Assembly: GCA_046882065.1 (NCBI GenBank) | Contig: JBKSMY010000006.1 | Coordinates: forward strand, 5,800 to 69,799 | DNA: 64,000 nt | Reading direction: 5' to 3' | Source of the DNA: Alphaproteobacteria bacterium | GTDB lineage: Bacteria > Pseudomonadota > Alphaproteobacteria > Rs-D84 | Shown: positions 6,778 to 25,595 of the stretch, piece after piece | Position numbering within the stretch: the stretch's first letter is position 1 | Layout of the letters: every line of letters starts with the position of its first letter | Notes under the pieces: model-generated | Database searches by the model: none | The model's input: only the letters and a program-made list of their open reading frames with translations | Told to the model about the DNA's origin: nothing | Made by a program: the position numbers and the translations under genes

Positions 6778-6862
<85 letters not shown>

Positions 6863-7125: not shown

Positions 7126-7154
7126 ATATATACCTTGTGTATCAGATTAGATTT

Positions 7155-7178: not shown

Positions 7179-7249
7179 TGTGTGTTGGTGGCTTGACATA
7201 AAGTAATTTTATTCTTAAGATAAGCATTGCACAATTTAAGGGGTTAGGC

Positions 7250-8359: not shown

Positions 8360-8374
8360 CGCAAGGAGAAAACC

Positions 8375-10324: not shown

Positions 10325-10334
10325 GAGTTAGACT

Positions 10335-11954: not shown

Positions 11955-11980
11955 AAACCGGGTTTCCCCGGTTTTTTTAT
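11955..11980. terminator. bidirectional terminator (aaaaccgggtttccccggttttttt)
   Basis: Hairpin between convergent genes ending at 11954 and 11977. Confidence 0.55.
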
Positions 11981-12477
11981 ATGGCGGATTGACCATAAAC
12001 AATCCAATACATATTATGTGAACCAGTTAAATAGGCCTGGATTACCAATGTGGTTGTTGTGCTGCTGTCTGATTTGACGACACCACTGTATGCGCCGGCG
12101 TTGCCTTCGCGACCCACCCATGAAAACCCGCACCAGTATTGATTATTCGCCATTTGTACTGGTAATGAAATGCTGCGTGTTTCACTTGTTAGTTCGTCCA
12201 ACTTTAATCGTCCGCCCATTTCAACCCAGCCACTTTTATATTTCCGGTACCAGGTGTAGTTATTGTCTGCCGTTGGCGTTTGCCAGGCGATGACATAATC
12301 GTATGGGGTCAAATCTGGAATTTCGCTTTGTTTCGCAAGTGTCGTGCCACCGGGTGTTTGCCCGTCGTGGACACGCAAAGTGTTTGCAGTTGTGTCAACC
12401 GTGATTTCACCGGGTGCGCCGGTAAATGTTTCATGTTCGGCCGACGTGCCGCGTCTGAATTGTATCTGTCGTGACAT
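11977..12477 (-). CDS. phage tail-fibre-like protein (conserved tail-fibre N-terminal domain), short
   Basis: MSRQIQFRRGTSAEHETFTGAPGEITVDTTANTLRVHDGQTPGG matches the widespread caudoviral tail-fibre/Mtd-N type N-terminal motif (QxRRGT..GE..D..T..L.VxDG.T.GG). Confidence 0.5.
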   Translation of the reverse strand: MSRQIQFRRGTSAEHETFTGAPGEITVDTTANTLRVHDGQTPGGTTLAKQSEIPDLTPYDYVIAWQTPTADNNYTWYRKYKSGWVEMGGRLKLDELTSETRSISLPVQMANNQYWCGFSWVGREGNAGAYSGVVKSDSSTTTTLVIQAYLTGSHNMYWIVYGQSAI

Positions 12478-12517
12478 TTTTATTCCTTTTTGAGTTTTTT
12501 TTTATACTGGTTAATGT

Positions 12518-12814
12518 ATGAAAAAAATTTTAATTATTTTTTATTGTTTTTTTACACCATTCTTGGCAATGGCTGTATTGCCAGTTGTAAAAACGAATAT
12601 CGAAATTCCGTATAGAATCGCTGTTGATTCCAGCGCAATTTCCAGCATCGGCTTCAAAGACAATGTTTTGGAAATCGAATTTAATTCTGGAAATACATAT
12701 CAATATAATGGTGTTGCCAAGGATACTTTTGAATTTTTTTTAAATTCTGAATCCAAAGGACAGTTTTTTAATCGTTATATCAAAGGTAACTATGATGTTA
12801 TTCGCATTAAATAG
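12518..12814 (+). CDS. KTSC-domain protein with signal peptide
   Basis: The signal peptide is MKKILIIFYCFFTPFLAMA. The KTSC-like core is SSAISSIGFKDNVLEIEFNSGNTYQYNGV..F..FLNSESKGQFFNRYIKG. Confidence 0.5.
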   Translation: MKKILIIFYCFFTPFLAMAVLPVVKTNIEIPYRIAVDSSAISSIGFKDNVLEIEFNSGNTYQYNGVAKDTFEFFLNSESKGQFFNRYIKGNYDVIRIK

Positions 12815-13278
12815 TTCCAATTTTTCATAACATACGTTCTGATGCCATAACCAGGATTATATTTTGGGTATAATTTTTGAAAATCTGCGCTGGCACAATA
12901 TATATCGTCTGATGATATCGCGCCAATTTGCGCCAGATACACCATCGCAATCGACGGAGAACGTGACACACCACAATCACAATGAATTAAAACAGGCATC
13001 GTTTCAATATGTGCAATAATAAACTTAATCGCAGCATCAAATATCGGATTGGTATAAGCCGGGTTAAATTCACATGGCATATCAACCAAATTTAAATATA
13101 GATTTTTTCCATGTTTATAGACTAAATAATCTGGATTGTCGCTACACAGACTGCCTTGGTACCCTAAAACGCGGCGATGACATGTTTTACACGCATGAAT
13201 TATTGCGATATTATCGTGACGATATGACATGCAATCATGCATATCACCGACATACAGGTTATTGTATACTTGTATCAT
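12790..13278 (-). CDS. dual-specificity / Cys-based protein phosphatase (CX5R active site)
   Basis: VLIHCDCGVSRSPSIAMVYL contains the HCxxGxxRS P-loop of DSP/PTP phosphatases. Its 3' end overlaps the convergent KTSC gene by 25 bp. Confidence 0.6.
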   Translation of the reverse strand: MIQVYNNLYVGDMHDCMSYRHDNIAIIHACKTCHRRVLGYQGSLCSDNPDYLVYKHGKNLYLNLVDMPCEFNPAYTNPIFDAAIKFIIAHIETMPVLIHCDCGVSRSPSIAMVYLAQIGAISSDDIYCASADFQKLYPKYNPGYGIRTYVMKNWNYLMRITS

Positions 13279-13288
13279 ATTACATCCA

Positions 13289-13525
13289 TTATTTTATAAC
13301 AGCCCCCTTAATCAGGGTCAGGTCTTCTTTGATATCGTCAATTTTAATCTGAATTTGACCAATGCCCGTTTCCAAAATCGTCGTGCGATTTTCAAGTGAT
13401 GTTATCCGGGTATCAAATGTTTCGTGTTCCGCAACAGATAAGTCTTGGCGGGCAGCCCAATAGACCAACCCACCAATGAACATTATCAAAAACCAACTGT
13501 TGCGCAGAAAGTCCAATGACATCAT
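13289..13525 (-). CDS. small membrane-anchored coiled-coil protein (phage accessory; spanin/holin-like?)
   Basis: N-terminal TM segment (WFLIMFIGGLVYWAA) followed by a helical repeat-like C-terminus. Confidence 0.3.
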   Translation of the reverse strand: MMSLDFLRNSWFLIMFIGGLVYWAARQDLSVAEHETFDTRITSLENRTTILETGIGQIQIKIDDIKEDLTLIKGAVIK

Positions 13526-13725
13526 GATTTGTCCCCCCTGCCCCGCACGATTTGTGATTCTATTTGGCGCACTAAGGCGCGTTGGGATTCAGCCCAGCGC
13601 AATTCCCCGTCCGATGCGTTCGCCCCTAGTGTGCGTTCAATCGTAATCTTGCGCAAATGATCCAAGACCGCACGACCGGACGGTGTGCCAAAACAACGCG
13701 CGTAGTTTAATGATATATCCGTCAT
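13522..13725 (-). CDS. hypothetical phage protein (67 aa)
   Basis: ORF translationally coupled (overlapping stop/start) with flanking phage genes. Confidence 0.3.
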   Translation of the reverse strand: MTDISLNYARCFGTPSGRAVLDHLRKITIERTLGANASDGELRWAESQRALVRQIESQIVRGRGDKS

Positions 13726-14957
13726 AGTTGCCCCCCAAGAACTGTTTCCAATGCCGTCATCTGGGCAATCGGCGCAATGTATTTTAGTTCTGCGTCCCCG
13801 TTCAGACGAATTGGTTCAATCAGCCCACGACGCGCCAATATCTGTAATCCACGGTCGCACAAGGGGCGTATAAATTCATGTAGCAAACGTCCATAGGTTG
13901 CGCCCAAAATACGCATCATATCGGCATTGCGCGCCATAATTTCTGTGGCGGTCATTTCTTTTTCAGACAACAACCCCAGTCGGTCCGCCAACAACGCATG
14001 ACGGATACGTTCGCGCAAATCGCGCAATATCAGTTGCGATACATCAAAGTTCGCACCACTGGTCAATGGGGTCAGACCAGATGAACCAACAGCCTTGGGT
14101 ATAATTGCGCCAGGGGTCAAGTTTATGTTCTGCAGATTGATTACGCCGTCGTCGTCCGCCATCCATATACCAGACACAGCAATTGTTGCATTTTTCAAGA
14201 CCAGTTCAACAACCTTGTTCGCGGTTTTAATGTCTGGCAATGCACGCAGGACCGGACCACGACCGTACAATTCACCAGATGATACCGCCCAGCGGAATAT
14301 AATGTATGGATTCGTTTCAAATGTACCCGTGGAAACAATGTTGTTTTCAATATCACCACCAACGTCCAGCCACGCAACAAAATCCGTTCCAACCAGGCTT
14401 TGTACCAATTTTAACGGGGTTTCAGGGTCGCGCTTTATCGTATCGCGCAGGTTTGCCGGCGGTGTCCATGTTGGGTATTTTTCCAGGACTTCGCGTGCAG
14501 ACATAGATGTTGTGTGGAATACTGCGTTTGGCAATATCGCAATATCTGTCATTGGAATGGCTGTAAATGTAAATGCAGATGATGCACCAATCGGCGATTC
14601 TGACATGAACAAACACGCCGTCCCCAGCACCACTAAGTCCATATAACACTGGTGGATTGTCGTATAAAAATTCGAGTCATTCAAATTCGCACGCAGGACA
14701 GTCGTCGCATAGTCTGCGTTCTGGGACAAATCACTTTCGCCCACCAATTGCAACCACATTGATTCCGGCGGTGTCAACAACGTGTAAATCGATGCCGCCA
14801 GATTGTCTGATGCGTCCATGGCGGTGGCGTCAAACAATGTTGCCGCATCGTCGTCGGCCGTCGGCATGGCATAGCGACGCGCCGCGTCCCAACGCGCAAC
14901 CCAAGGCGCACGCGTATCCAATGCACGTTTATAAAGGTTCTGTAAATTTTGATACAT
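13722..14957 (-). CDS. putative portal protein
   Basis: 411-aa ORF immediately downstream of the terminase-C fragment, which is the canonical TerL-portal order. The size fits; no motif-level proof. Confidence 0.35.
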   Translation of the reverse strand: MYQNLQNLYKRALDTRAPWVARWDAARRYAMPTADDDAATLFDATAMDASDNLAASIYTLLTPPESMWLQLVGESDLSQNADYATTVLRANLNDSNFYTTIHQCYMDLVVLGTACLFMSESPIGASSAFTFTAIPMTDIAILPNAVFHTTSMSAREVLEKYPTWTPPANLRDTIKRDPETPLKLVQSLVGTDFVAWLDVGGDIENNIVSTGTFETNPYIIFRWAVSSGELYGRGPVLRALPDIKTANKVVELVLKNATIAVSGIWMADDDGVINLQNINLTPGAIIPKAVGSSGLTPLTSGANFDVSQLILRDLRERIRHALLADRLGLLSEKEMTATEIMARNADMMRILGATYGRLLHEFIRPLCDRGLQILARRGLIEPIRLNGDAELKYIAPIAQMTALETVLGGQL

Positions 14958-14974
14958 TTTGTTTCCTTTTGGTT

Positions 14975-15859
14975 TTATATCTTGAAATTTGTGTTGGCAG
15001 AAAAGGTTTTTATCGATGTGCCAATTGCACGCACGGGCGTTGGAGTGTCCGTTATCGCGCCCGCGACCGCGTCCAGGCCGTCATCGTGAATGCCGGTTGC
15101 CCCAATCGGAGACCAGCCTAACATTTCCGACAACAGCGGCGTGTTTTGAACACGCGTGTGTGCGTGCAGGCGACCCGTTGATAGCAACGGTTCAATAGCA
15201 TTCAAAATTCGGTCTGATTTTGGTTTATTGTTCTGGATTTTATTTACATATATGTTTGCACCTTGCTTGATTGCACAATCGCGCATAATTTCAGGCAACC
15301 CAACCCCCAGGCCATTTGTTTCGATTGTTATGCGACGCAGTCCACGCGCAGACATAAATTCCAACACCATATCGCATTGGCGCGACAATGGGAACAGTTC
15401 ATCATCAGATACGGTCAGGTATAAAATATCGTGGATAAACACACGGCGCGAATTATCATCACGATACAGCAATACACAGGTACTGCCGTCGCGATGACGA
15501 CGGCCAGTCGCCGGATCCCAATATAATGTCATGCCTGTGATATGAAATTCATCAATCCGTGCAAAACGTGGGTCAAATTCAGTTTCATAAAATTTTAGTC
15601 CCCCCGGGTCCAGGCGGGCGCGTTCAAGCGGTGTGCATTCCAACATCATCTGGGACGAGAAGTGGCGCATACCAACTGTTTCGCGCAATTGTTCTATTCT
15701 TGAAAGCGGGAATAATTCGGGCCACGCGGGCGTCCCATCTGCGTTAACTATCGGAATTTTCAGCAATTTATACCCATGTAAAAAAGGCGTTGAAAAAGCA
15801 TTTTTTTCATATACTATGGGCATAGAAGAAAAGGAATTTGACATGGATTTTACCCCCAA
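14975..15859 (-). pseudogene. terminase large subunit, C-terminal nuclease-domain fragment
   Basis: LYWDPATG .. FIHDI .. IHDDGLDAVAGA are the RNaseH-like TerL nuclease motifs. There is no ATPase domain. The ORF opens with TTG and has no RBS. Its first ATG (CAT 15842-15844) overlaps the divergent dnaB ATG (15843). Confidence 0.6.
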
Positions 15860-17408
15860 AACATTACCAACAAATCTGGAAGCAGAACAGGCAGTATTGG
15901 CTGCGGTACTGATGAATAATCGTGCGTTGGAACGTGTGGGCGAATTCCTGAATTACAAGCATTTTTCACATCCTGCACACCAGGAAATTTATAAACTGGC
16001 CGAAAAGCAATTTGCCGCAGGTATTCCATTCGATATTATTACCGCAAAAAATTATCTGGACCAACAGGGCGTTCTGGAATCTGTTGGTGGCGTGGACTAT
16101 TTAAGCCAATTAACCAGCGCCGGCGCGACCGTCGTTAATGTTGAACAATATGGACGCATCGTTTATGAACATGCGTTGCGTCGTGATTTAATCGCCCTGG
16201 CCCAGGATATTACAGACAAGGCTTTTGTCGAAGATTTAGACAATCCGGTCGCGCGCCAGATTGAAATCGCAGAACAAAAGTTGTTCGATATGGCAACAAC
16301 AGGGACGTCTGAACGCGAACTGACTTCTATTTCAAGCGCGTTGCAAAGCGCCCTGGCTGAGGCAGAAATCGCATACAAAGCCGATGGTCAGTTATCCGGT
16401 CTGACGACGGGATTGAACGCATTGGATAAATCAATTAGTGGGCTGCATCATTCAGATCTGATTATTATCGCAGGACGTCCCGCGATGGGGAAAACCACAC
16501 TGGCAATGAATATCGCGTTCAATGCCGCCCAGGCAATTGCATTTGGTCGCGCAAACCAAAATTACAAGGGCGCAGTTGTGTTTTTCAGCCTTGAAATGTC
16601 GGCGTCCCAGTTGGCGGCGCGTGTGCTGTCATCGCAATCCAAGATTCCTGCAACCGCCATGCGTGAAGGAACACTGACGGATGAAGACTTTCTGAAAATG
16701 TCACAATATTCAGCCGCCATCGGACAGGTGCCGTTATTCATTGATGACACCCCGGGTATGAGTGTGCCAATGATGCGTACGCGTGCACGGCGTCTGGCGC
16801 GTAAACACGGTGGAATCGCGTTGATTGTTATCGACTATCTGCAGTTGATGACATCCCCCGGTGGCAAGCATAGTGACAATCGTGTTCAGGAAATTTCTGA
16901 AATTACACGAGGGCTGAAAATGCTGGCCAAGGAATTAGATGTCCCAGTTATCGCCCTGTCCCAGTTGTCGCGTAGCGTGGAATCGCGCGATGACAAACGA
17001 CCAATGCTGTCCGATTTGCGTGAATCTGGTTCTATTGAACAGGACGCGGACATTGTTATGTTCACATACCGCGAAGAATACTATTTGCAAAATCGTGACC
17101 CGTCTGACCGCATATCGAATAATGTTAATGATAAAATGCATGAATCATGGCAGAGCAGAATGGAACGCGCACGCGGCAAAGCAGATATTATCATCGGCAA
17201 AAACCGTCATGGTCGCCCTGAAACTGTACGCACAGCGTTCTTTGGCGATTACAGTCTGTTCGACAACCTGGACGAATTTGAGGCGCGTGGTGAAAATGAT
17301 TTTGCACAACCTGCACCAACAATTACAGCAGCACAACTGGCAAATGATGTGGATTCTATGCCGACTGCGATTGATCCAGACGCAATTCCAGACGACATGC
17401 CGTTGTAA
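15843..17408 (+). CDS. dnaB: DnaB-family replicative DNA helicase
   Basis: N-terminus LPTNLEAEQAVLAAVLMNN. Walker A is GRPAMGKTTLAMNIAFNAA. Walker B/H4 are IDYLQLM and SQLSRSVE. There is an unusual ~45-aa acidic C-terminal tail. The upstream in-frame extension from 15633 is judged non-coding. Confidence 0.8.
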   Translation: MDFTPKTLPTNLEAEQAVLAAVLMNNRALERVGEFLNYKHFSHPAHQEIYKLAEKQFAAGIPFDIITAKNYLDQQGVLESVGGVDYLSQLTSAGATVVNVEQYGRIVYEHALRRDLIALAQDITDKAFVEDLDNPVARQIEIAEQKLFDMATTGTSERELTSISSALQSALAEAEIAYKADGQLSGLTTGLNALDKSISGLHHSDLIIIAGRPAMGKTTLAMNIAFNAAQAIAFGRANQNYKGAVVFFSLEMSASQLAARVLSSQSKIPATAMREGTLTDEDFLKMSQYSAAIGQVPLFIDDTPGMSVPMMRTRARRLARKHGGIALIVIDYLQLMTSPGGKHSDNRVQEISEITRGLKMLAKELDVPVIALSQLSRSVESRDDKRPMLSDLRESGSIEQDADIVMFTYREEYYLQNRDPSDRISNNVNDKMHESWQSRMERARGKADIIIGKNRHGRPETVRTAFFGDYSLFDNLDEFEARGENDFAQPAPTITAAQLANDVDSMPTAIDPDAIPDDMPL

Positions 17409-17441
17409 TTTATAATTATTTGCTTGCGCAGGGAACAAAAA

Positions 17442-17460
17442 TTGACTATTATTTTGTCAA
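17442..17460 (+). promoter_or_regulatory. inverted repeat TTGAC-N9-GTCAA overlapping a -35-like TTGACT, upstream of repressor gene; candidate operator
   Basis: Palindrome seen directly; RBS aggag and ATG 17486 lie downstream. Confidence 0.3.
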
Positions 17461-17485
17461 GTATTAGTCATTTAGGAGTTTGCCC

Positions 17486-18493
17486 ATGGCCCAAGAAGAA
17501 ATTATATTTCCAAATAATATCCGCAACATTCGTTTGGCTAACGGTATGAAGATGACCGAACTGGCGCGTCGCGCAGGTTTATCTTTGTCTGCTGTTTCCA
17601 AGATTGAAAAAGGTGTTCGCCGACTGAACCAAAAACAGTTGTTGAATATTTGTAATATCCTGGGCTGTAAACTGTCCGATATTTTCATCAAAGAATCCGA
17701 TGATGTCGCAGACCAATGGCAAAGCGAAATCAAACGCCGTATGTCAGACAATGAAAACAGCGGTCTGAAAGTGTTCGGCAGCGGTCTGCGCAAGATTCGC
17801 CAGCAACGCGGAAAAACAATCGCACAGGCAGCAAAAGACGCCGGCATGACATTGTCTGTTTATCATAAAATCGAAGTCGGACAACGTGAAATCTATCAAA
17901 ATGAAATCGAACCATTGGCGCGTTCTTTTGCATTGGGTGCCGAAGAATTGTTCGATAAAATCGCAAGCCTGTATAAATCTGGCGAGTTGAACAAGCACAT
18001 CAGCAAAGTTAAAGAACGTGTAAAATCCGTTCTGATACCGGGCAATCCAATATCTGGTATGGACATGCACGGCGGTTTGTATGGCGCAAAATTGTATGAC
18101 AGCGCACGCAAAAAACTGGTTCCTGTGTTCGGCACACCCGCTGGCAAAGGAATCTCATTTAAAAAATCTGACAAAACAATGATTGTCGCCCCAATGACAT
18201 TAGAAGGACGCGCCGGCATCTATGCCGTTGCACCAAATTCTAAACGTTTGGGTGGTTTTGTGCCTGAAAATTCATATGTGTTTGCGGATTCCATGACCCC
18301 AGCACAGCCAGGCGATTTAGCAGTCGCAATTGATGTGGACTTTGACACATTGGATGGCGATACAACTGTTAATGCACAAATCGTTAGTGTGCGTCAGGAT
18401 TCCAAAGGCAGAGTTTATGGTCAGATGTCTTCACCAGATGAAAAATTGACAGCACAAACTATGCACAAGGTCGTTATGATTGTTATGGAATAA
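17486..18493 (+). CDS. CI/LexA-like repressor: two XRE-type HTH domains plus C-terminal S24-peptidase-like domain
   Basis: Two HTH_XRE-like segments (TELARRAGLSLSAVSKIEKG; IAQAAKDAGMTLSVYHKIEVG). C-terminal FADSMTPAQPGDLAVAIDVD resembles the GDSM..PGDLVVVD autocleavage module. Start moved to the ATG 7 nt after aggag. Confidence 0.6.
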   Translation: MAQEEIIFPNNIRNIRLANGMKMTELARRAGLSLSAVSKIEKGVRRLNQKQLLNICNILGCKLSDIFIKESDDVADQWQSEIKRRMSDNENSGLKVFGSGLRKIRQQRGKTIAQAAKDAGMTLSVYHKIEVGQREIYQNEIEPLARSFALGAEELFDKIASLYKSGELNKHISKVKERVKSVLIPGNPISGMDMHGGLYGAKLYDSARKKLVPVFGTPAGKGISFKKSDKTMIVAPMTLEGRAGIYAVAPNSKRLGGFVPENSYVFADSMTPAQPGDLAVAIDVDFDTLDGDTTVNAQIVSVRQDSKGRVYGQMSSPDEKLTAQTMHKVVMIVME

Positions 18494-18519
18494 TACAAAC
18501 ATACACGGAGAGAGAACCC

Positions 18520-19161
18520 ATGAACGTCAAAACCAGCGCAATCGCATTGAAATTATTAAACCTGTACCGCCAAGAACATGTTATTATTGGTGGCTGGACG
18601 ACTGTTAATCCGATTTTTTTAGCCGAGGCAACTGATGAAGTAATTAAAGAGTTGCGCACAATCCCCACAGGTAAATTATTGGTGCAACATATTGAAAATC
18701 TGCGCAGCGGCAAGACAGCCATGGACACCATAGATTCAGAATTGCTGCCATATGGCGGAATGATGACCGCAGAAGACATAGCAACAATTAAACTGACACC
18801 ATATCAATGGCGCGAACTGGAAGAAGGATTACGCAACTTTACACCAGATCAGGCAGGACTGGACAAATTTATGTCAATGGATGTTGTGCGCGAATTTGGC
18901 GAAGAATGGCAGAATTCTATTCGTTCCACTTTGAACGCACGACCACAATTGTTGGACAAATGGCGCACTGTTAAGCAAACCTATAATGCGTACAGACTGT
19001 GGGATATGGCGAATGAAATTATAGCCGCTCCGATATCCGAACGTAATCGCGCCCAGGTACAGGCCGATATGCCGGAATATGAAACATATTTACCTATGTT
19101 TGGCGACGCAGGTGCAGAATTGTTGACTAAATTACGCACATTTATCAGCAATATTGATTAA
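18520..19161 (+). CDS. hypothetical protein (213 aa)
   Basis: ORF with RBS; its stop overlaps the stop of the terminase-N fragment (convergent). Confidence 0.4.
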   Translation: MNVKTSAIALKLLNLYRQEHVIIGGWTTVNPIFLAEATDEVIKELRTIPTGKLLVQHIENLRSGKTAMDTIDSELLPYGGMMTAEDIATIKLTPYQWRELEEGLRNFTPDQAGLDKFMSMDVVREFGEEWQNSIRSTLNARPQLLDKWRTVKQTYNAYRLWDMANEIIAAPISERNRAQVQADMPEYETYLPMFGDAGAELLTKLRTFISNID

Positions 19162-19793
19162 TTGTTGCGGTATATTGTGTCGTGCGTATGTGGCGTTCCG
19201 ATGTAAATCATTGCCCCATTCGGCGAAAGGATAAAATCTAATTCGCGCAGTCTTTCACGCATTTGTTCCCGTTTCTGCGGGGTGTTTGATGTGTTGGGAA
19301 CTTCGACATCGTCACAAATAATTAGGTCTGCGCGCAATCCTGTAATGTTGCCATGCAAGCCTTGGCAGATGACGGAAGGTTCGCGGATGCCAATTGGTCG
19401 ATTAACCGTTATGCGTGCTGATGCCCATTCTTTTTTATTTTGCGGCACCAAATGGGCGCACCACGGATGATTTTCTAGTATATGCCGAATGTGTGATACC
19501 ATACGCGACGACAGCCCGGATTCCGCAGATAATATCAGTATTCTTGTTTGTGGACGCAGATACAATACACAGGCAACAAAAACACCAACAACTGTTGATT
19601 TGCCAGAATGTCGAAACGCCATCAACAGCCCACGATGTGGCGCATCACACAAAACATCATATAAAAATTCCATAATTTTGCGATGATGCGTTGGCGTCTG
19701 CAACCCCAAGACCCGATTCCATTCATCTAAGAAACTATAAAATTCCGTAATCATCGCGGTTTTCATTCGGGGCAGGTTCTGAAATAAAGCCAT
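19158..19793 (-). pseudogene. terminase large subunit, N-terminal ATPase-domain fragment
   Basis: Walker A is AFRHSGKST and Walker B is LIICDDVE, with a downstream GTP coupling-like motif. It ends after 211 aa with no nuclease domain. Confidence 0.65.
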
Positions 19794-20286
19794 AATCGTT
19801 TATCAATTTAGGCAATGCATTTTCCAGCACCCCAACCAAATTACGATACACCCCCAATACTGCGCCACCGCCCAGTTTATCGCGAATAACGTCATGCGTG
19901 TAATTTATCAACGATTTAACATCATTGTGGATGTTCGCCCATTCAACCAAGTCTGTGTTCACAGAATGTAAATCTTGAAATGCAGACAACAGAAAGTTAA
20001 AATCTGTGTTCAAATCTTCTGGGTCTATTCTGCGAGTTGGTTGATAGTCAATGGTGCGCGATAATGATATTTGTCGAAAAATGTCCAGTTTTGTATCCGC
20101 AGGTGGCGCAACATCAAAAACAACGTTGCCACCAGAAAAATCTTCGTTTGGTAGAACGGCATAATTAAATGCGCCATCCCCTATAACATCATTTATGGCA
20201 ACGCGCACATCTGCGGTCTGAAAAAAAGGAAACACAAACGCAAATTCCGTTGTCAGGCCGTCTGCAATATAAGATATTTTATACAT
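19735..20286 (-). CDS. phage structural/accessory protein, hypothetical (183 aa)
   Basis: ORF in the co-directional phage gene string. Confidence 0.35.
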   Translation of the reverse strand: MYKISYIADGLTTEFAFVFPFFQTADVRVAINDVIGDGAFNYAVLPNEDFSGGNVVFDVAPPADTKLDIFRQISLSRTIDYQPTRRIDPEDLNTDFNFLLSAFQDLHSVNTDLVEWANIHNDVKSLINYTHDVIRDKLGGGAVLGVYRNLVGVLENALPKLINDYGFISEPAPNENRDDYGIL

Positions 20287-20306
20287 AGTATGTCCCCCAC
20301 CCTGCC

Positions 20307-20654
20307 TTAGCCAACCAGGTCATCAAATCTGGACAGCAAAGATTTCAATAAATTTGGTTTCTTGGCGCGTGCATTTTTTAACTTGGTCATATTATTGCGA
20401 CGCTTTTCTTCGTATGGTGCAGACGTTTCCGATTTCAGGCGTTTCAAAACTGCGCCTTCGGTCACGCCGTTTGTGCGCATGCCAGACGCACCATATTTTG
20501 CGCGCTGGGCCGCCAACGCTTTTTTCACCAGGTTTGTTTTTTCTGCTTCGTCCGCAGCCATCTGTGCGATTATTTCTTGGCGTTGATTTTTTGCCGCCTT
20601 TTTAGCGTCTTTGTAATCCAAGATTTCCGTTATATCTGATACAACTTGTCCCAT
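20307..20654 (-). CDS. basic helical phage protein (115 aa); small-terminase or internal protein candidate
   Basis: Lys/Arg-rich composition; position just upstream of TerL. Confidence 0.3.
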   Translation of the reverse strand: MGQVVSDITEILDYKDAKKAAKNQRQEIIAQMAADEAEKTNLVKKALAAQRAKYGASGMRTNGVTEGAVLKRLKSETSAPYEEKRRNNMTKLKNARAKKPNLLKSLLSRFDDLVG

Positions 20655-20681
20655 GTTTATGTCCTTGTGTTTTATAATGTG

Positions 20682-22412
20682 TTAAACCGAGTACCAACCG
20701 TGCAAACTGACAGAAAGTACTGTTGTTGGATAATTTTCGTTGCCGTGCACCGTCCATGCGGGCGTCATACAATCTGTTGTTGTGCCTAATAGATTTATTG
20801 AAACGTCGCCGCTGAATCCAGGACTGGTCGCGGCATATATTTCATTTGGCAAACTAATCTGGAGATTGTTTATTGATATGGATTTAGTATCCAGAACACG
20901 CGCTGTAATCTTGCGCAGGCGCAGACGTGTCGCGTTATGCCCAGATGCGCGTAATGGCATGCCAGATGCCTGAAAAGAAAAACTGTATTTATCTGCATCC
21001 ATCATTGCACCTGCATCAAATCGTTCAAGATAAAACCCATCTTCGCGATGCGTCGCAACATATGTGCGTCCGTCACAGACAGCAACCGATATAAACTGGC
21101 CGCGTGTTTTATATTGCCCCCAGGCAGAAATCCCCAGCGCTGCATTCTGATTTAATACAGCCATCGTGCCGTCAGCCAGTACAACAAACAGCCGACGCGC
21201 TGTATCATTATATGCGATATCTATCGGATTGGTCAGCAGATGCTTGGACAATGCGCATAGGTCATTTGCATTGTAATTTTCACCTAACTCGTCCAATGCT
21301 AATTCGCGAATATCACGACCAGACGCAGATACGAATATGGTCGCACCTTCGATTTTCTGGGGCGGTAAATAACGCACAACATACGAACCAACCGATGTAT
21401 GTTGTTTAATGTCAACAACAGATGGAGTTAGCGGTTTACTGGAAATCGCCCATTCACCAACATTGGTTAAGATTTGTAAAGTATCGCTGCTGACGACGGT
21501 ACAAATCTGTTGACGCTGGGCCGATAACAGAGATATAAATATGGCTTCGTCATCCAGACCCGTGCCAGCATCAAAGTTATTGTGTTGCCCCACGCGTGAC
21601 AACCATATTCCAGCCGGCCATGAACGCGATCCACCGAACACCAAGCGATCCTGGTGAAAGGTGATGCTGCGTGGCCAACCACGACGCGCACCAAACGCAC
21701 ATTCATGCCAATCTGATATGGCGGAATCAGGCAAAGTATAGGTGCCATTTGTGTGTACGACAACCTGGGTTGGACTGATATATTCTATGATTTGCCATTG
21801 GCGATTTAACAAGCGCAAACGACCGCCAACATTTTCAGGTGTCCAAAAATCTGCATTCGTGGTAAATGTTGCATAATTGTTGCCTGATGAATGGGCGCTG
21901 ACCGTTATTTTTATATTAGACGCATCGTCAAATTTTACAAACGGCATATTGACCGTCATATCTGCGTCGTTGCGCGAAAATTCGAATTCACGCAAATAAA
22001 ACCTATTGCCAGATTTGTATAATGTTTGTGGCTGATAATCAGCATGCACAAATATCATTGTGCCAAAACGCTGGGCATACTGTAAATGCGATGCGTCGTT
22101 GTATGACCAAGGTGTTTTTAGCGACTGGTAAAGTGTGTCGCCCAGATATATATCAATGTAAAAATCTGTTATTGCCAACAGATATTCTTCGTCATCAGAA
22201 ACAGAAAAAGGTATTAGGCGTGCTGGGCCTTTGAGTGCGCTGATACTGCGTAAACCTGAACGACGCGACAGGCCACCGCCCGCCAGGACATCCATGTTTT
22301 CCAATCGGGACAGACCGTCTATATTATCGTGCGCATAGAATTCTGGGGCAACCGCACCATTTGCAAATGAATTTTGTGTTTTGATAAAATCTGCCATGCG
22401 AAAATCCCCCAT
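20682..22412 (-). CDS. tail tubular protein B-like (T7 gp12-like), putative
   Basis: 576 aa directly after the gp11-like gene. Local resemblance to T7 gp12 (LAGGGLSRRSG vs LKGGISQQP; FGGSRSW vs FASPRSSF). Recollection-based. Confidence 0.4.
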   Translation of the reverse strand: MGDFRMADFIKTQNSFANGAVAPEFYAHDNIDGLSRLENMDVLAGGGLSRRSGLRSISALKGPARLIPFSVSDDEEYLLAITDFYIDIYLGDTLYQSLKTPWSYNDASHLQYAQRFGTMIFVHADYQPQTLYKSGNRFYLREFEFSRNDADMTVNMPFVKFDDASNIKITVSAHSSGNNYATFTTNADFWTPENVGGRLRLLNRQWQIIEYISPTQVVVHTNGTYTLPDSAISDWHECAFGARRGWPRSITFHQDRLVFGGSRSWPAGIWLSRVGQHNNFDAGTGLDDEAIFISLLSAQRQQICTVVSSDTLQILTNVGEWAISSKPLTPSVVDIKQHTSVGSYVVRYLPPQKIEGATIFVSASGRDIRELALDELGENYNANDLCALSKHLLTNPIDIAYNDTARRLFVVLADGTMAVLNQNAALGISAWGQYKTRGQFISVAVCDGRTYVATHREDGFYLERFDAGAMMDADKYSFSFQASGMPLRASGHNATRLRLRKITARVLDTKSISINNLQISLPNEIYAATSPGFSGDVSINLLGTTTDCMTPAWTVHGNENYPTTVLSVSLHGWYSV

Positions 22413-22931
22413 TTAAAAGCGCGTGTTAACTAATGAAAAATCCGATATACCGTCGATTGTGGCGGTTGTACTGTCTATAAATTTCGCGGTCTGTAATTCT
22501 GTTTCGTATAATGCCGCCAACATACGAAATACTGTTTGATCCCCCATTAAGGGAATACAAAATTCCATCGCCAGTCGCGTTGCCGCCAAGGAAACAAAAT
22601 ATCCTGGGTATAATTCTGGGGCGGTTTTTACGACTGCGGTTATTGTTGTTGTGTCGCCGTCACATAAAATTCTGTTTCCGTTAATGCGTCCAGATGTTTT
22701 TAAAACACGCAGAACGTTGGCAGGAACTAAAAAATCGCCGTTTGTGTTCTTGGTTAAATCCATGGTCTGGGTCGCAAAACGCCACGGGTGGGCAGATATA
22801 ACAGAATCCATCACAGTATCGAATAATGTGCGTGCAAGTTTTGCAGGGGCGCTGTCGTCGGTAAGAGACTGAATTGGCTGTTCGCCAATCTTTAATAACG
22901 CCATCGAACATAAGTCTATTTTGGTAAGCAT
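22413..22931 (-). CDS. tail tubular protein A-like (T7 gp11 family)
   Basis: From internal Met MLTKIDLCSMALLKIGEQPIQSLTDDSAPAKLARTLFDTVMDSVISAHPWRF. This parallels T7 gp11 ..VNDILASIGEPPVSTLEGD..RRILNKINRQIQSRGWTFN. The size is ~172 aa. RBS aaggtg. Confidence 0.5.
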   Translation of the reverse strand: MLTKIDLCSMALLKIGEQPIQSLTDDSAPAKLARTLFDTVMDSVISAHPWRFATQTMDLTKNTNGDFLVPANVLRVLKTSGRINGNRILCDGDTTTITAVVKTAPELYPGYFVSLAATRLAMEFCIPLMGDQTVFRMLAALYETELQTAKFIDSTTATIDGISDFSLVNTRF

Positions 22932-22960
22932 TTTTGCACCTTTGGTTAATAAAAATTTTA

Positions 22961-22980
22961 GGTCGGCAATTTTGCCGACC
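22961..22980 (-). terminator. hairpin ggtcggcaa-aatt-ttgccgacc followed by T-rich tract on minus strand (intra-operon attenuator/terminator)
   Basis: Perfect 9-bp stem between the 77-aa ORF and the gp11-like gene. Confidence 0.35.
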
Positions 22981-23007
22981 TGTAAGGGAAAGGAGAAAAA
23001 AAGTTTG

Positions 23008-23241
23008 TTATGCCAATGCAACTGTTGTTACATTCAAATCTGTGATATTGATTTTCTTAATCGCAGTATTATCAGATGCGTTGATAATAATAATATCACC
23101 TATGTTCATCAATGTTTTGACTGCATTGAAATATCCGTTGGCGGTAATTGTCGCCAATGTTTCAGCCGAGCCACAGTAATGCCACAATGTAAATCCATTT
23201 GCATACGCGATAACAGATAAATTTTTGTTCTGAAAAGCCAT
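23008..23241 (-). CDS. small phage protein (77 aa), hypothetical
   Basis: ORF between capsid and gp11-like genes. Confidence 0.3.
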   Translation of the reverse strand: MAFQNKNLSVIAYANGFTLWHYCGSAETLATITANGYFNAVKTLMNIGDIIIINASDNTAIKKINITDLNVTTVALA

Positions 23242-23280
23242 ATGAGTTTTCCTTTTGGTTAAGTTGAATTTTAAATTGTG

Positions 23281-24102
23281 TTATTCGCCATCCGAACATT
23301 TAACGCGAACAATACCATCTGCATCAATCAAGACCGCGCCTTGGGACATGCTGTTGCTGATAAAGTGCGCAGCACGTTCGCCATGCCATGAAATGTCTGT
23401 CTTGACTTCCTGGCCACAGGCATGACCAATGCTGGATGCGTGATAGATAAAGCAATCACGATTTGTTTCCGTGCCCGGCAGACCGTTATACAGAACCCAT
23501 GTAATGCCCAACCATTTACGCGCAACACCACCATTCAACAATGGCAACGCATCGCCAACATAATCAGCAGAAACAAATTCATCCATGGACAGCAGTTCAT
23601 TCCACTGGCGCACACCAACAACCGCAAAGCGACGCCCATCGTCTGGAACATCGTTAGTGTTCAACACCTCAACCGCAGATAAAATTAAATCCTTGGTAAG
23701 ACCCGTCGAATAATCACCAACGTTTGCTGTCGCATTGTTCATGGCAGATACAATCAATTCGTCTGTTTTGCGACCCAAGGCATATGCGCCCGCAGATGCA
23801 ACAACACGACGTTCATCAATATTGACCTTTAATTCATCCAAAGCATCAACCCAATCGCCCGCATAGTAATCAGACAACATACATTCAACAGGTTCATGAT
23901 TCAGATTCATCACAGGCACAATGCCGTGACGTGATTTTGTGCTGGCCGTGCCACGACCAACCTTTTGAAATGTGGTGGATGCACCGATGACACCCGATTT
24001 GCTGCGAACCGTAGAACGCAGTTTTGTGCCCATTTGCTGATACGCCAAATGAACATCGGCTTCGAATTGTTTCACAAACACATTATCGATGGAAACAGAC
24101 AT
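23281..24102 (-). CDS. major capsid protein (T7 gp10-like / HK97-fold), putative
   Basis: 273 aa. C-terminal YHASSIGHACGQ..AAHFIS resembles the T7 gp10 MHRSAVGTVKL..IAKYAMGHGG region. Preceded by a scaffold-like gene and followed by tail tube genes. RBS aaagga. Confidence 0.45.
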   Translation of the reverse strand: MSVSIDNVFVKQFEADVHLAYQQMGTKLRSTVRSKSGVIGASTTFQKVGRGTASTKSRHGIVPVMNLNHEPVECMLSDYYAGDWVDALDELKVNIDERRVVASAGAYALGRKTDELIVSAMNNATANVGDYSTGLTKDLILSAVEVLNTNDVPDDGRRFAVVGVRQWNELLSMDEFVSADYVGDALPLLNGGVARKWLGITWVLYNGLPGTETNRDCFIYHASSIGHACGQEVKTDISWHGERAAHFISNSMSQGAVLIDADGIVRVKCSDGE

Positions 24103-24290
24103 AGAAAAATCCTTTGCTATAAAAAATTAAACACAGGTGCCAATGTACGGCACCGCAAAATATTTTGTATTTTGGTTGTGCATAAAATGCGCCATCAGAC
24201 AAAAAGTTTTAGGGTCCGCAGATGCGGATTGTCCATAAAAAATATCAGTCAGACCTGCGCAAATATCTGACTGATACTTTTATTAAAAAA

Positions 24291-24306
24291 CCCCGCAATC
24301 GCGGGG
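24291..24306 (-). terminator. ccccgcaatcgcgggg hairpin followed (minus strand) by TTTTTTAATAAAAG; strong terminator right after the repeat-protein gene
   Basis: Seen directly. A second hairpin, tcagtcaga..tctgactga, lies at 24246-24275. Confidence 0.5.
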
Positions 24307-24318
24307 TAAATATTTCAA

Positions 24319-24624
24319 TTATTTTTTCTTGCAAACTTTTTTAGCAGGTGCTTTTTTCGCACATACTTTTTTTGCAACTGGTTTTGCAACTACTTTTTTA
24401 GCAGGTGCTTTCTTTGCAACTGGTTTTGCAACTGGTTTTTTAGCAGGTGCTTTCTTTGCAACTGGTTTTGCAGCCGGTTTTTTAGCAGGCGCTTTCTTTG
24501 CAACTGGTTTTGCAGCCGGTTTTTTAGCAGGTGCTTTCTTTGCAACTGGTTTTGCAGCTGGTTTCGCGGCTGGTTTTTCAGCAACTACTTTCTTTGCTGC
24601 TTTTTTCTTAAACAAGAATGCCAT
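24319..24624 (-). CDS. histone-H1-like basic repeat protein (tandem KPAAKPVAKKAPAK 14-aa repeats)
   Basis: The protein is 101 aa and almost entirely Lys/Ala/Pro/Val. It contains about five tandem repeats and ends in a Cys-containing tail, VCAKKAPAKKVCKKK. Confidence 0.6.
   Translation of the reverse strand: MAFLFKKKAAKKVVAEKPAAKPAAKPVAKKAPAKKPAAKPVAKKAPAKKPAAKPVAKKAPAKKPVAKPVAKKAPAKKVVAKPVAKKVCAKKAPAKKVCKKK
24394..24561. repeat. 42-bp tandem DNA repeat x4 (plus partial copy) inside the basic-protein gene
   Basis: Unit ttttttagcaggtgctttctttgcaactggttttgcaRcYgg recurs at 24394, 24436, 24478 and 24520. Confidence 0.85.
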
Positions 24625-24736
24625 TCTTTCTCTCCTTCAATATAAAAAGTTTTGGACAGAACAAACCTGTTTTGTTCTTAATTGCATTTTATCGTAATTA
24701 CAAAACTTAGTAAAGAAGAAAGTGTGTTTTTTCAAA

Positions 24737-25393: not shown

Positions 25394-25583
25394 TGTCTTT
25401 TCCTTTGGTTTCGTTTGAACGGCGCAGAAAATATATTCCCGCCAATGTAAATATTGCCTGCAACATTGTAAATAAATCTGTATCACCCACCAGGTATGCA
25501 CCAACAGCCGACAAGATACCCGTCGCAGAAATTATGTATGTTCGGTACCCAGACAGGTAGCCACCATGTATTATTCGTTTCAT
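25386..25583 (-). CDS. holin-like small membrane protein
   Basis: 65 aa with two hydrophobic segments and a charged C-terminus, immediately downstream of the lysin gene. Confidence 0.35.
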   Translation of the reverse strand: MKRIIHGGYLSGYRTYIISATGILSAVGAYLVGDTDLFTMLQAIFTLAGIYFLRRSNETKGKDNG

Positions 25584-25595
25584 AGAAATCGCCCA

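What the first reader, a model, noticed from the sequence alone, without database searches (positions are those of the whole stretch)
15843..19161. Cargo inside the terminase: DnaB-family helicase plus dual-HTH LexA/CI-like repressor plus unknown gene
The helicase looks like a complete replicative DnaB, with GRPAMGKTT, the N-terminal LEAEQAVLAAVL and a ~45-aa acidic C-terminal tail. In many alphaproteobacteria dnaB lies just downstream of rplI. Here rplI (47808-48404) is followed by ihfA instead. This copy could therefore be the cell's replicative helicase, relocated into a prophage. It could equally be a phage or satellite replication module. The adjacent repressor has two XRE HTH domains and an S24-like C-terminus (FADSMTP..PGDLAVAIDVD), so it may be SOS-cleavable. 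It is preceded by a TTGAC-N9-GTCAA palindrome (17442-17460) overlapping a -35-like box. That layout fits an autoregulated genetic switch placed on the opposite strand to the phage late genes.
Basis: partly seen in the sequence, partly recalled or inferred. Interest (0 to 1): 0.6.

Follow-up and report, generated by a model that had tools for sequence, protein, structure and literature searches.

The report
Host dnaB nested in split terminase
In a lineage of uncultured gut Alphaproteobacteria, a cellular-type replicative helicase gene and a conserved two-gene regulator module sit inside the DNA-packaging (terminase) gene of an immobile, phage-derived particle gene cluster; the terminase persists as two conserved pieces, an arrangement I found no description of.

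Summary
A complete DnaB (15843-17408), a two-HTH regulator (17486-18493) and a 213-aa orphan (18520-19161) lie on the + strand. They sit between the two halves of one T7-like large terminase on the - strand (terN 19158-19793, terC 14975-15847).

This is not a recent insertion into a prophage. The same layout occurs in 9 species-level MAGs and about 60 metagenome contigs, always next to birA. It co-diverges with birA. dN/dS is 0.01-0.12 for every gene, and the terminase catalytic motifs are invariant. The surrounding ~14 kb holds only head, tail, packaging and possible lysis genes. No integrase or phage replication gene was found, so the cluster resembles a gene transfer agent (GTA).

The DnaB passes the cellular alphaproteobacterial equivalog model and fails the phage DnaB model. 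It stays intact where the particle genes are deleted. The regulator and orphan gene pair also occurs in phage-free chromosomal contexts in other lineages.

The regulator's C-terminus has a predicted LexA/CI fold, but 0 of 57 orthologs carry the Ser/Lys dyad, so SOS self-cleavage is not supported. The dnaB promoter lies inside the first codons of terC.

Not shown: that this is the cell's only dnaB, or that particles are made.

The parts
14975..15847 (-). terC: C-terminal fragment of the T7-like large terminase, holding the remainder of the ATPase domain plus the nuclease domain. The start is ATG 15845-15847 (MSNSFSSMPIVY...) or ATG 15821-15823 (MPIVY...).
   Evidence: PHROG 38 positions 475-708 and PF22530. 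Separate proteins of 279-288 aa in more than 120 clusters. The nuclease acidic residues in YWDP, ETNG and HDDGLDA are invariant in 46/46. dN/dS 0.09.
15790..15817 (+). Predicted dnaB promoter (TTGAAA, 16-nt spacer, TACTAT), embedded in the first ~15 codons of terC.
   Evidence: Consensus scan. Nearly invariant in 46 distinct orthologous sequences. Synonymous-site conservation in terC codons 16-30 is 0.81 against a gene mean of 0.60. Function is inferred, not shown.
15843..17408 (+). dnaB: complete DnaB-family replicative helicase, 521 aa.
   Evidence: Pfam DnaB and DnaB_C. NF006606 scores 614 against a cut-off of 540; TIGR00665 scores 509 against 385; TIGR03600 phage_DnaB scores 401 against 499 and so is not met. 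dN/dS 0.02.
17268..17405 (+). DnaB C-terminal extension: a variable acidic linker ending in a conserved tip, IPDD(M/I/F)(P/I)(L/I).
   Evidence: Lies beyond the end of the DnaB_C match at residue 475. The tip is conserved in most of 48 orthologs.
17424..17460 (+). Predicted regulator promoter and operator: conserved CTTGC (-35, TTGCGC 17424-17429), 17-nt spacer, TATTAT (-10, 17447-17452). The palindrome arms TTGAC (17442-17446) and GTCAA (17456-17460) bracket the -10.
   Evidence: Sequence. Alignment of 41 distinct intergenic regions, with TTTTGTCAAG invariant in the rows displayed and in the 90% consensus; the left arm is lost in L005 and L006. The -35 matches only 3 of 6 positions and the scan tool did not call this site, so the promoter is an inference.
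17486..18493 (+). XRE/CI-like regulator, 335 aa: two HTH domains plus a C-terminal S24-like domain that lacks the catalytic residues.
   Evidence: HTH_3 twice. The C-terminal domain model has pLDDT 85.6. Foldseek top hits are lambda CI 2HO0/2HNF, LexA, 186 CI and UmuD'. 0/57 orthologs have the Ser+Lys dyad.
18520..19161 (+). h213: 213-aa all-helical protein of unknown function, the conserved partner of the regulator.
   Evidence: No family hit. AF2 model pLDDT 75, all helical. No fold match in the PDB or BFVD libraries. Distant homologues lie directly downstream of a two-HTH regulator (full-length homology checked for two of the three) in phage-free contexts.
19158..19793 (-). terN: N-terminal fragment of the large terminase (Walker A, Walker B, motif III). 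Its stop codon overlaps the h213 stop codon within TTAA at 19158-19161.
   Evidence: PHROG 38 positions 268-459. Aligns to T7 gp19 (8DGC, 4BIJ) residues 19 to about 215. RHSGKST, CDDxE and GTPH are invariant in 59/59. dN/dS 0.02. Sequence.
11977..26012 (-). Surrounding phage-derived cluster, read along the - strand: scaffold 24737-25504, HC2-like protein 24319-24624, capsid 23281-24102, tail tube A 22413-23021, tail tube B 20682-22412, fibre N-terminal part 19735-20286, terN, [the three nested genes], terC, portal 13722-14957, Bbp19 13522-13725, a 78-aa gene, DSPc, and the Mtd_N fibre tip 11977-12477. A 138-aa ORF (25596-26012) and a 65-aa ORF (25386-25583) may be lysis genes.
   Evidence: Pfam and PHROG hits. 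Gene order is conserved across loci. The lysis-gene reading of the 138-aa and 65-aa ORFs is my own reading of the sequences; neither has a family hit.
26182..26955 (-). birA (biotin-protein ligase), the conserved host gene on the right flank.
   Evidence: TIGR00121 scores 146 against a cut-off of 83. It is adjacent in every locus that reaches that far. It co-diverges with DnaB and with the capsid.

Best explanation
The three genes are resident chromosomal genes, not phage cargo. They are the cell's DnaB replicative helicase, plus a two-gene module (a CI-like two-HTH regulator and a helical partner protein) that other Alphaproteobacteria carry in ordinary chromosomal contexts.

In the ancestor of this gut lineage these genes became fixed inside the large-terminase gene of an immobilised T7/pelagiphage-like head-tail-packaging cluster. 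That cluster has since been inherited vertically under purifying selection, as a gene transfer agent (GTA) would be.

The terminase is made as two polypeptides. terN carries Walker A, Walker B and motif III. terC carries the rest of the ATPase domain plus the nuclease. The two must reassemble non-covalently (inferred).

dnaB is transcribed from a sigma-70-type promoter that lies inside the first codons of terC, and the two start codons abut or overlap. The regulator has its own promoter, whose -10 hexamer is bracketed by a conserved TTGAC-N9-GTCAA operator, so it probably represses itself (inferred). Its LexA/CI-like C-terminal domain has lost the catalytic dyad, so it would serve for oligomerisation, not RecA-stimulated self-cleavage.

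One consequence is that the particle operon is cut into two units. terC and portal can be expressed only from inside dnaB, or by transcription running antisense through it (inferred).
For: Split but whole terminase:
- The PHROG 38 matches of the two halves abut.
- The joined halves align as one piece to intact TerL.
- The junction maps after motif III of T7 gp19.
- All catalytic motifs are invariant in 46-59 orthologs.

Fixed, vertically inherited locus:
- The layout is the same in 7 of the 9 species-level MAGs, and in every IMG/VR, ENA or Logan contig that spans the terminase. The other two MAGs are L010 (degenerate, dnaB inverted) and L007 (recG inserted).
- birA is always on the flank.
- Distance matrices correlate: DnaB against terN, terC, portal and capsid r=0.77-0.79, p=0.001; birA against DnaB r=0.77 and against capsid r=0.75.
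- dN/dS is 0.01-0.12 at dS 0.5-1.0 for every gene.
- No integrase was found and there are no flanking repeats.

Host nature of the nested genes:
- DnaB passes NF006606 and TIGR00665 and fails TIGR03600.
- Its clade is monophyletic and branches with alphaproteobacterial DnaBs, not inside a phage clade.
- The best genuine phage DnaB is at most 43% identical, against about 50% for cellular DnaBs of gut Alphaproteobacteria.
- In L010 the capsid, tail, portal and most of terN are deleted, yet DnaB, the regulator and h213 are intact.
- In L007, recG lies between terC and dnaB.
- The regulator+h213 pair is found in L150, L153 and L155 beside recR, dnaG, greA or efp with no phage genes nearby. For L150 and L153 the regulators were compared directly and are 33-37% identical to this one over their full length.

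Regulation:
- Conserved promoters and operator.
- Synonymous-site constraint in the 5' end of terC.
Against: - I could not show that this is the only dnaB. The single genome-collection scan returned no second hit from the nine MAGs among its best 80. However, that scan finds only sequences sharing an exact 8-residue pattern, so it is weak evidence.
- The DnaB clade sits on a long stem. It is sister to all other alphaproteobacterial DnaBs in 81 of 100 bootstraps, rather than nested with the gut relatives. That placement is compatible with a period spent in a phage.
- Phages do capture host DnaBs. The Caulobacter phage DMCA helicase nests with Asticcacaulis.
- A CI-like repressor next to a helicase, on the strand opposite the late genes, is also the classic layout of a temperate phage early region.
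- No conserved promoter for terC was found inside dnaB.
- Particle production, DNA packaging and reassembly of the two terminase pieces are all untested.
- Every sequence comes from a MAG or metagenome contig; there is no isolate.
Confidence: 0.6

Rival explanations
1. The three genes are a remnant of a temperate phage's early region. DnaB, the CI-like repressor and h213 would be the element's own replication and immunity module. DnaB would serve to amplify the locus in situ or replicate the element, and the regulator would hold the late genes off.
For: - The block lies on the opposite strand, between packaging genes.
- The regulator has a CI/LexA-like fold.
- In the canonical T7-like order the portal precedes the scaffold. 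In a circular permutation of that order, the early region would fall between the terminase and the portal, roughly where these genes sit.
- Phage DnaBs of host origin exist.
- Run-off replication linked to a GTA is known in Bartonella (PMC2697382, listed; the abstract only was read).
Against: - No integrase, initiator, primase or polymerase was found.
- The locus is fixed and co-diverges with birA.
- The phage_DnaB model cut-off is not met.
- The regulator+h213 pair occurs in phage-free contexts in other lineages.
- The three genes outlive the particle genes in L010.
- The block sits inside the terminase, not after it.
Confidence: 0.18
2. This DnaB is an accessory paralogue. The cell would have a canonical dnaB elsewhere, and this copy would serve a specialised role, for example with the particle cluster or in repair.
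For: - The clade has a long stem branch and an unusual C-terminal tail with a conserved tip.
- The rest of the genome could not be examined.
Against: - It scores above the equivalog cut-offs for the housekeeping helicase.
- It is among the most conserved genes at the locus, with dN/dS 0.02.
- It is retained when the particle genes are lost.
- No second hit from the nine MAGs appeared in the best 80 of the scan, which is weak evidence.
- There is no dnaB after rplI in the window.
Confidence: 0.13
3. A dead prophage. An insertion destroyed the terminase, and the flanking phage genes are decaying pseudogenes.
For: - A gene interrupted by 3.3 kb normally means inactivation.
- One lineage (L010) really is degenerate.
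Against: - dN/dS is 0.01-0.12 at dS near 1, with full-length ORFs in dozens of lineages.
- The catalytic motifs are invariant.
Confidence: 0.02
4. A programmed intervening element of the skin/sigK or comK-prophage type. The 3.3-kb block would be excised in cells committed to particle production, rebuilding an intact terminase gene.
For: The split is clean and no terminase sequence is missing.
Against: - No recombinase is present: DnaB and the regulator are identified, and h213 matches no recombinase family or fold.
- There are no direct or inverted repeats at the two junctions.
- terC has its own start codon and Shine-Dalgarno sequence, conserved across loci.
- No contig with a rejoined terminase appeared among the 120 listed (highest-scoring) of 1575 hits.
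Confidence: 0.03

Closest known systems
Gene transfer agents (RcGTA-type viriforms of Alphaproteobacteria; FpGTA of Faecalibacterium, PMC12946183)
   Same: A phage-derived head, tail and packaging cluster in which no integrase or phage replication gene was found. It sits at a fixed chromosomal locus, is inherited vertically and is under purifying selection.
   Different: The cluster is T7/pelagiphage-like, that is podovirus-type. The alphaproteobacterial GTAs known to me are siphovirus-like. PMC12946183 describes FpGTA as the first podovirus-like GTA-like element. No described GTA that I know of has a split terminase or an essential-type host gene nested in it. Packaging of host DNA is not shown here.
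Phage enzymes naturally split into two polypeptides by an insertion, for example the split DNA polymerase, NrdA and topoisomerase genes of T4-family phages
   Same: An insertion divides one enzyme gene into two ORFs, and both stay under selection, presumably because the pieces reassemble.
   Different: In those cases the insert is a homing endonuclease or a short mobile element. Here it is 3.3 kb of host-type genes on the opposite strand. The split gene is the large terminase, cut inside its ATPase domain.
Phage 186 CI and lambda CI / LexA repressors
   Same: An N-terminal HTH DNA-binding part plus a C-terminal S24-type beta-barrel, with a palindromic operator in the gene's own promoter.
   Different: This protein has two HTH domains in tandem. 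The Ser/Lys dyad is absent in all 57 orthologs. In lacking that dyad it resembles the non-cleaving 186 CI (a comparison from memory) rather than lambda CI or LexA. Its orthologs occur in non-phage contexts.
Intervening elements and phage regulatory switches (the skin element in sigK, the comK prophage)
   Same: A gene is interrupted by a multi-gene block without loss of coding sequence.
   Different: The roles are reversed: host genes interrupt a phage gene. There is no recombinase and there are no repeats. Both pieces have their own translation signals.
Phage- or plasmid-borne DnaB analogues (P1 Ban; Caulobacter phage DMCA helicase)
   Same: A full-length DnaB-family helicase physically linked to phage genes.
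   Different: Those lie in mobile genomes alongside replication modules. This one passes the cellular equivalog model, fails the phage model and is fixed in the chromosome.

Membership tests
Cellular replicative helicase DnaB | N-terminal DnaB domain plus a C-terminal RecA-type ATPase with a Walker A motif | tested here: met
   PF00772 2.8e-29 and PF03796 2.3e-100; GRPAMGKTT is present.
Cellular replicative helicase DnaB | Scores above the curated equivalog cut-offs | tested here: met
   NF006606 scores 614.4 against 540; TIGR00665 scores 508.6 against 385.25.
Cellular replicative helicase DnaB | The only DnaB in the genome, and essential | not testable with these tools
   Only 64 kb of this genome and +/-10 kb of related contigs could be read. 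There is no second copy in the window, and no second hit from the nine MAGs among the best 80 of the scan.
Phage DnaB (TIGR03600) | Score above the model's cut-off | tested here: not met
   400.8 against a cut-off of 498.65.
LexA/CI self-cleaving repressors (peptidase S24) | S24-type C-terminal fold | tested here: met
   The AF2 model has pLDDT 85.6. Foldseek hits are lambda CI 2HO0 (E 8e-4, probability 1.0), LexA, 186 CI and UmuD'. There is no sequence-level hit in Pfam or in a PDB profile search.
LexA/CI self-cleaving repressors (peptidase S24) | Catalytic Ser/Lys dyad | tested here: not met
   The Ser column reads A36/S9/I4/V4/T3/P1 and the Lys column R44/H8/K4/A1. 0/57 orthologs have both residues. 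The window protein has Ser+Arg.
LexA/CI self-cleaving repressors (peptidase S24) | Ala-Gly (or Cys-Gly) cleavage site in the linker | not tested
   The linker region has low model confidence (residues 1-11 of the model). I made no structure-based mapping of a cleavage site.
Large terminase, T7-like | ATPase Walker A, Walker B and motif III, plus the acidic residues of the RNase H-like nuclease | tested here: met
   All are invariant in 46-59 orthologs. Supported by PHROG 38, PF22530 and the 8DGC/4BIJ alignment.
Large terminase, T7-like | A single polypeptide | tested here: not met
   There are two ORFs 3.3 kb apart. terC is a separate protein of about 280 aa in more than 120 clusters. No intact relative was among the 120 listed (highest-scoring) of 1575 hits.
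Gene transfer agent | A phage-like structural and packaging cluster with no integrase or replication module, at a fixed locus, vertically inherited and under purifying selection | tested here: met
Gene transfer agent | Particles are produced and package more or less random host DNA | not testable with these tools
   This needs virus-like-particle sequencing or a culture.
Active temperate prophage or phage satellite | An integrase or recombinase, attachment-site repeats, and a variable insertion site | tested here: not met
   No integrase was found. There are no junction repeats. The same birA flank appears wherever it is visible. No tRNA gene is conserved at the left side.
Split intein / protein trans-splicing | An IntN of about 100 aa after the N-extein, and an IntC ending in HN followed by C, S or T before the C-extein | tested here: not met
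   terN ends 2 residues after its terminase match. The roughly 20 residues that precede the terC match contain no HN[CST] motif.

The most novel reading that the evidence does not exclude
The cluster is a podovirus-type gene transfer agent (GTA), and its operon is deliberately interrupted by the cell's only dnaB. Because the dnaB and terC start codons abut, and no room is left for an independent terC promoter, full particle expression (terC and portal) would require transcription running antisense through dnaB and the regulator gene. Commitment to particle production and lysis would then be mechanically coupled to shutting off the replicative helicase and the repressor. During growth the reverse would hold: dnaB transcription would block leaky particle assembly. 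In addition, the essential gene would act as a hostage that prevents loss of the cluster by deletion.
Probability: 0.1. Interest if true: 0.9.

Novelty: new variant of a known kind. Interest (0 to 1): 0.7.

Why it matters
If DnaB is the sole replicative helicase, this is an essential replication gene embedded in, and sharing promoter and coding sequence with, a phage-derived packaging gene. The arrangement has been kept across many species, which makes it an unusually intimate case of phage domestication.

It also gives a naturally split large terminase, cut inside the ATPase domain, with every catalytic motif conserved. That offers a ready-made system for studying how the terminase domains assemble.

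The cluster is a candidate podovirus-type GTA in gut Alphaproteobacteria, a group with no cultured members that I know of. Only one podovirus-like GTA-like element has been reported, in Faecalibacterium (PMC12946183).

Finally, the work points to an uncharacterised gene pair that recurs in other, probably alphaproteobacterial, chromosomes: a two-HTH regulator with a dead S24 domain, followed by a helical partner protein.

Tried and rejected
- Flanking repeats or target-site duplications at the two junctions: none found.
- Intact-terminase relatives: none among the 120 listed (highest-scoring) of 1575 hits. The one longer hit, P0001 (402 aa), is a terC with an internal tandem duplication.
- Sequence-profile search of the regulator's C-terminal domain against the PDB: found no LexA or CI. 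Only the fold search did.
- Extra copies of the operator in the late-gene regions of the window: none above chance.
- A conserved antisense promoter for terC inside dnaB: not found.
- An 'empty site' for an ancestral dnaB, sought by comparing the neighbours of DnaB in sister gut lineages: uninformative.
- A conserved tRNA attachment site: tRNA-Leu lies left of the cluster in the window only.
- RNA families: only two tRNAs in the whole window.
- The best 'phage' DnaB hit, MT835812.1, is a bacterial chromosome fragment and was discarded as phage evidence.
- Literature searches found no description of this arrangement.

Full report
**1. The observation**

The + strand between 15843 and 19161 carries three ORFs.

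- The first, 521 aa, is a complete DnaB. It has the Pfam N-terminal domain (2.8e-29) and DnaB_C (2.3e-100, residues 186-475), followed by a 46-aa acidic tail.
- The second has two HTH_3 domains. Its start is ATG 17486, behind a conserved AGGAG.
- The third, 213 aa, matches nothing in Pfam, PHROGs or NCBIfam.

On the - strand these genes are flanked by two ORFs that match adjacent parts of the same large-terminase profile. terN (19158-19793) matches PHROG 38 positions 268-459, and terC (14975-15859) matches positions 475-708. Joined end to end, the two align as a single piece (aa 18-478) to intact T7-like terminases. Against T7 gp19 (8DGC, 4BIJ) the break falls just after the motif III helix, so it lies inside the ATPase domain. 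'Cargo inside the terminase' is therefore literally correct.

**2. Surroundings**

The - strand from about 26012 to 11977 encodes, in order:

- a T7-type scaffold, an HC2-like basic protein, the capsid, tail tubular proteins A and B, and a fibre N-terminal part;
- terN, the three nested genes, then terC;
- a T7-type portal, a Bbp19-like protein, small ORFs, and an Mtd_N fibre tip.

A 138-aa ORF and a 65-aa ORF at the right end may be lysis genes. That is my own reading; neither has a family hit.

I found no integrase, polymerase, primase or initiator in the ORFs I screened between 1223 and 34302. The right flank is birA (TIGR00121). The left flank is a low-GC glycosyltransferase island lying behind a tRNA-Leu gene.

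The closest isolated phage by capsid is Pelagibacter phage Hodr, at 45% identity. In Hodr, and in a 63%-identical faecal contig, the order is the canonical portal-scaffold-capsid. In the window the portal follows terC instead.

**3. The arrangement is old, fixed and under selection**

A scan of one genome per species with DnaB as query found nine MAGs of uncultured gut or rumen Alphaproteobacteria at 71-94% identity, and then a drop to 50% or less.

- Seven of the nine show the order portal-terC-[DnaB-regulator-h213]-terN-...-capsid.
- So do 59 IMG/VR contigs wherever they span the region, and so do ENA and Logan contigs.
- Every contig that reaches beyond the scaffold continues into the 138-aa gene, birA, a 139-aa gene and a 110-aa HTH gene.

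Pairwise distance matrices correlate. DnaB against terN, terC, portal and capsid gives r = 0.77-0.79 (p = 0.001). birA against DnaB gives r = 0.77, and against capsid r = 0.75.

For the closest pair (dS 0.5-1.0), dN/dS is 0.01-0.12 for every gene, including terN (0.02) and terC (0.09). Walker A, Walker B, motif III and the three nuclease acidic motifs are invariant in 46-59 distinct orthologs. More than 120 protein clusters of terC are separate proteins of about 280 aa, and no unsplit relative was among the 120 listed hits.

This is not a decaying prophage, and it is not a mobile one. It behaves like a domesticated, GTA-like cluster with a working two-piece terminase. Reassembly of the two pieces is an inference.

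**4. What the nested genes are**

*DnaB.* It scores above the cut-offs of the alphaproteobacterial equivalog NF006606 (614 against 540) and of TIGR00665, and below the phage_DnaB cut-off (401 against 499).

- Genuine phage DnaBs are at most 43% identical. The 49.5% 'phage' hit, MT835812.1, is a bacterial chromosome fragment.
- In a neighbour-joining tree the clade is monophyletic (100/100). It joins the alphaproteobacterial DnaBs as sister to all of them in 81 of 100 bootstraps, or to the gut group in 17 of 100. It does not fall inside a phage clade, although it sits on a long stem.
- In MAG L010 the capsid is truncated at about residue 85 and fused to the tail end of terN. The tail genes and the portal are gone. 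DnaB, the regulator and h213 are nevertheless intact.
- In the termite-gut MAG L007, recG lies between terC and dnaB.

*Regulator and h213.* Distant homologues of h213 were found by a profile search of 1.8 billion representative proteins. In the three loci I examined, the homologue lies immediately downstream of a two-HTH regulator of 332-350 aa, in ordinary chromosomal neighbourhoods (recR, ksgA, dnaG, greA, efp, pheST) with no phage genes. For two of them I compared the regulators directly: they are 33-37% identical to this one over the full length.

All three nested genes therefore look like host genes. Whether this DnaB is the only one could not be tested. The window has no second copy, rplI is followed by a convergent HU/IHF gene, and the pattern-limited scan returned no second hit from the nine MAGs.

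**5. The regulator in detail**

The C-terminal 150 residues model confidently (pLDDT 85.6). The best fold matches are the lambda CI C-domain (2HO0, 2HNF), the LexA C-domains, the 186 CI C-domain and UmuD'.

The motif FADSMTP is not conserved, however. The Ser column reads A36/S9/I4/V4/T3/P1 and the Lys column R44/H8/K4/A1. No ortholog has both residues, and the distant homologues in L150 and L153 lack the Ser as well. Self-cleavage, and with it SOS induction by that route, is not supported.

Upstream of the gene, 41 distinct orthologous sequences conserve CTTGC, a 17-nt spacer and TAnTAT. The arms TTGAC and GTCAA bracket that -10 hexamer, and TTTTGTCAAG is invariant in the rows displayed and in the 90% consensus. 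This looks like an autorepressed promoter. That is an inference: the -35 is weak and the scan tool did not call the site.

**6. Shared regulatory and coding sequence**

TTGAAA, a 16-nt spacer and TACTAT (15790-15817) are almost invariant and lie inside the first ~15 codons of terC. Synonymous sites there are the most constrained in terC, at 0.81 against a gene mean of 0.60.

In most loci the dnaB and terC start codons overlap at CATG, and only 7 nt separate the -10 hexamer from the dnaB ATG, which suggests a leaderless mRNA. The window and its closest relatives carry an 18-nt insertion there that supplies an AAGGA Shine-Dalgarno sequence.

At the other end, the stop codons of h213 and terN overlap within TTAA. 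The particle operon is thus cut into two units. I found no conserved promoter for terC-portal inside dnaB. Its expression must come from a weak internal promoter or from read-through antisense to the three genes, and neither has been tested.

**7. Mechanism I commit to, and the rivals**

Confidence in the committed model is 0.6. Host dnaB and a host regulator pair are nested in a domesticated podovirus-type particle cluster. The terminase works as two polypeptides. dnaB and the regulator are transcribed from their own conserved promoters, and the regulator is a non-cleavable CI-like autorepressor.

- Shown: the anatomy, conservation, selection, family membership, the fold, and the absence of the dyad.
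- Inferred: sole-copy status, terminase reassembly, promoter and operator function, and particle production.

Rivals:

| Rival | Confidence |
|---|---|
| Remnant phage early region with its own replication and immunity module | 0.18 |
| Accessory DnaB paralogue | 0.13 |
| Dead prophage | 0.02 |
| Excisable intervening element | 0.03 |

**8. Comparison with what is known, and novelty**

The cluster works like a GTA but is T7-like. The only podovirus-like GTA-like element in the literature I could search is FpGTA of Faecalibacterium (PMC12946183). Split phage enzymes are known in T4-family phages (from memory), but not a terminase split by host genes. The regulator resembles 186 CI more than LexA. 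Four literature searches found no description of this arrangement.

I rate it a new variant of known kinds: a domesticated phage cluster, a split gene and a CI-like repressor. The combination of features is unusual.

Noticed in passing
window 17268-17405; orthologs in L003-L143: The C-terminal extension of DnaB has a variable acidic linker but a conserved tip, IPDD(M/I/F)(P/I)(L/I), in most of 48 orthologs. It looks like a docking peptide, reminiscent of the acidic tip of SSB (a comparison from memory).
   Followed up: partly
window 15818-15842 compared with L003, L004, L005, L006, L009, L088, L091, L092: An 18-nt insertion (GGGCATAGAAGAAAAGGA) between the dnaB -10 hexamer and the ATG supplies a Shine-Dalgarno sequence in the window's subclade. 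Loci without the insertion have only 7 nt there, which suggests a leaderless dnaB mRNA, and their dnaB and terC start codons overlap at CATG.
   Followed up: partly
window 24319-24624 (-); L010 8-442: A histone-H1/HC2-like AKKP-repeat protein is encoded between the scaffold and capsid genes. It may be a DNA-condensing or internal virion protein.
   Followed up: no
window 11977-13278: The left end of the cluster is variable. It holds an Mtd_N-type fibre tip (166 aa), a KTSC-domain gene on the + strand and a dual-specificity phosphatase. Among the genome loci L003-L011, only L003 and L009 showed an Mtd_N homologue by tblastn, and none a KTSC or DSPc homologue. No reverse transcriptase was noticed nearby.
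   Followed up: no
window 6778-11954: A tRNA-Leu gene is followed by a low-GC (35-39%) island of glycosyltransferase, pyruvyl transferase and deacetylase/radical-SAM genes that abuts the cluster. No tRNA gene was found in the eight other loci scanned.
   Followed up: partly
window 28102-28434 (-): A 110-aa HTH protein two genes beyond birA is 78-93% identical across loci in which birA is about 60% identical. A TTTTGTCAAA half-site lies about 50 nt upstream of it. It may be a regulator linked to the cluster.
   Followed up: no
L007 1072-3150: In a termite-gut MAG, recG (692 aa) lies between terC and dnaB, and no regulator or h213 gene follows dnaB within the contig.
   Followed up: partly
L010 1-5700: This is a degenerate version of the locus. 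The capsid is truncated and fused to the 3' end of terN, and the tail genes and portal are deleted. dnaB is inverted, so that dnaB and terC are co-directional and overlap by 4 nt. The three nested genes are intact.
   Followed up: yes
L150 8720-11481; L153 9478-11616; L155 10741-12876: In other lineages the regulator+h213 pair is followed by further genes with no Pfam hit. L153 and L155 have genes of about 270 aa and about 420 aa; L150 has genes of 574, 185 and 161 aa. This hints at a larger uncharacterised operon.
   Followed up: no
L143 8228-9436 (protein P0001): One metagenome contig carries a terC with an internal tandem duplication of about 120 residues (402 aa). It could be an assembly artefact or a real variant.
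   Followed up: partly
L142 (GenBank MT835812.1): This record is labelled 'Bacteriophage sp.' but is a bacterial chromosome fragment (MurJ, an MFS transporter, an inositol monophosphatase-like gene, DnaB). It would mislead phage-based comparisons.
   Followed up: yes
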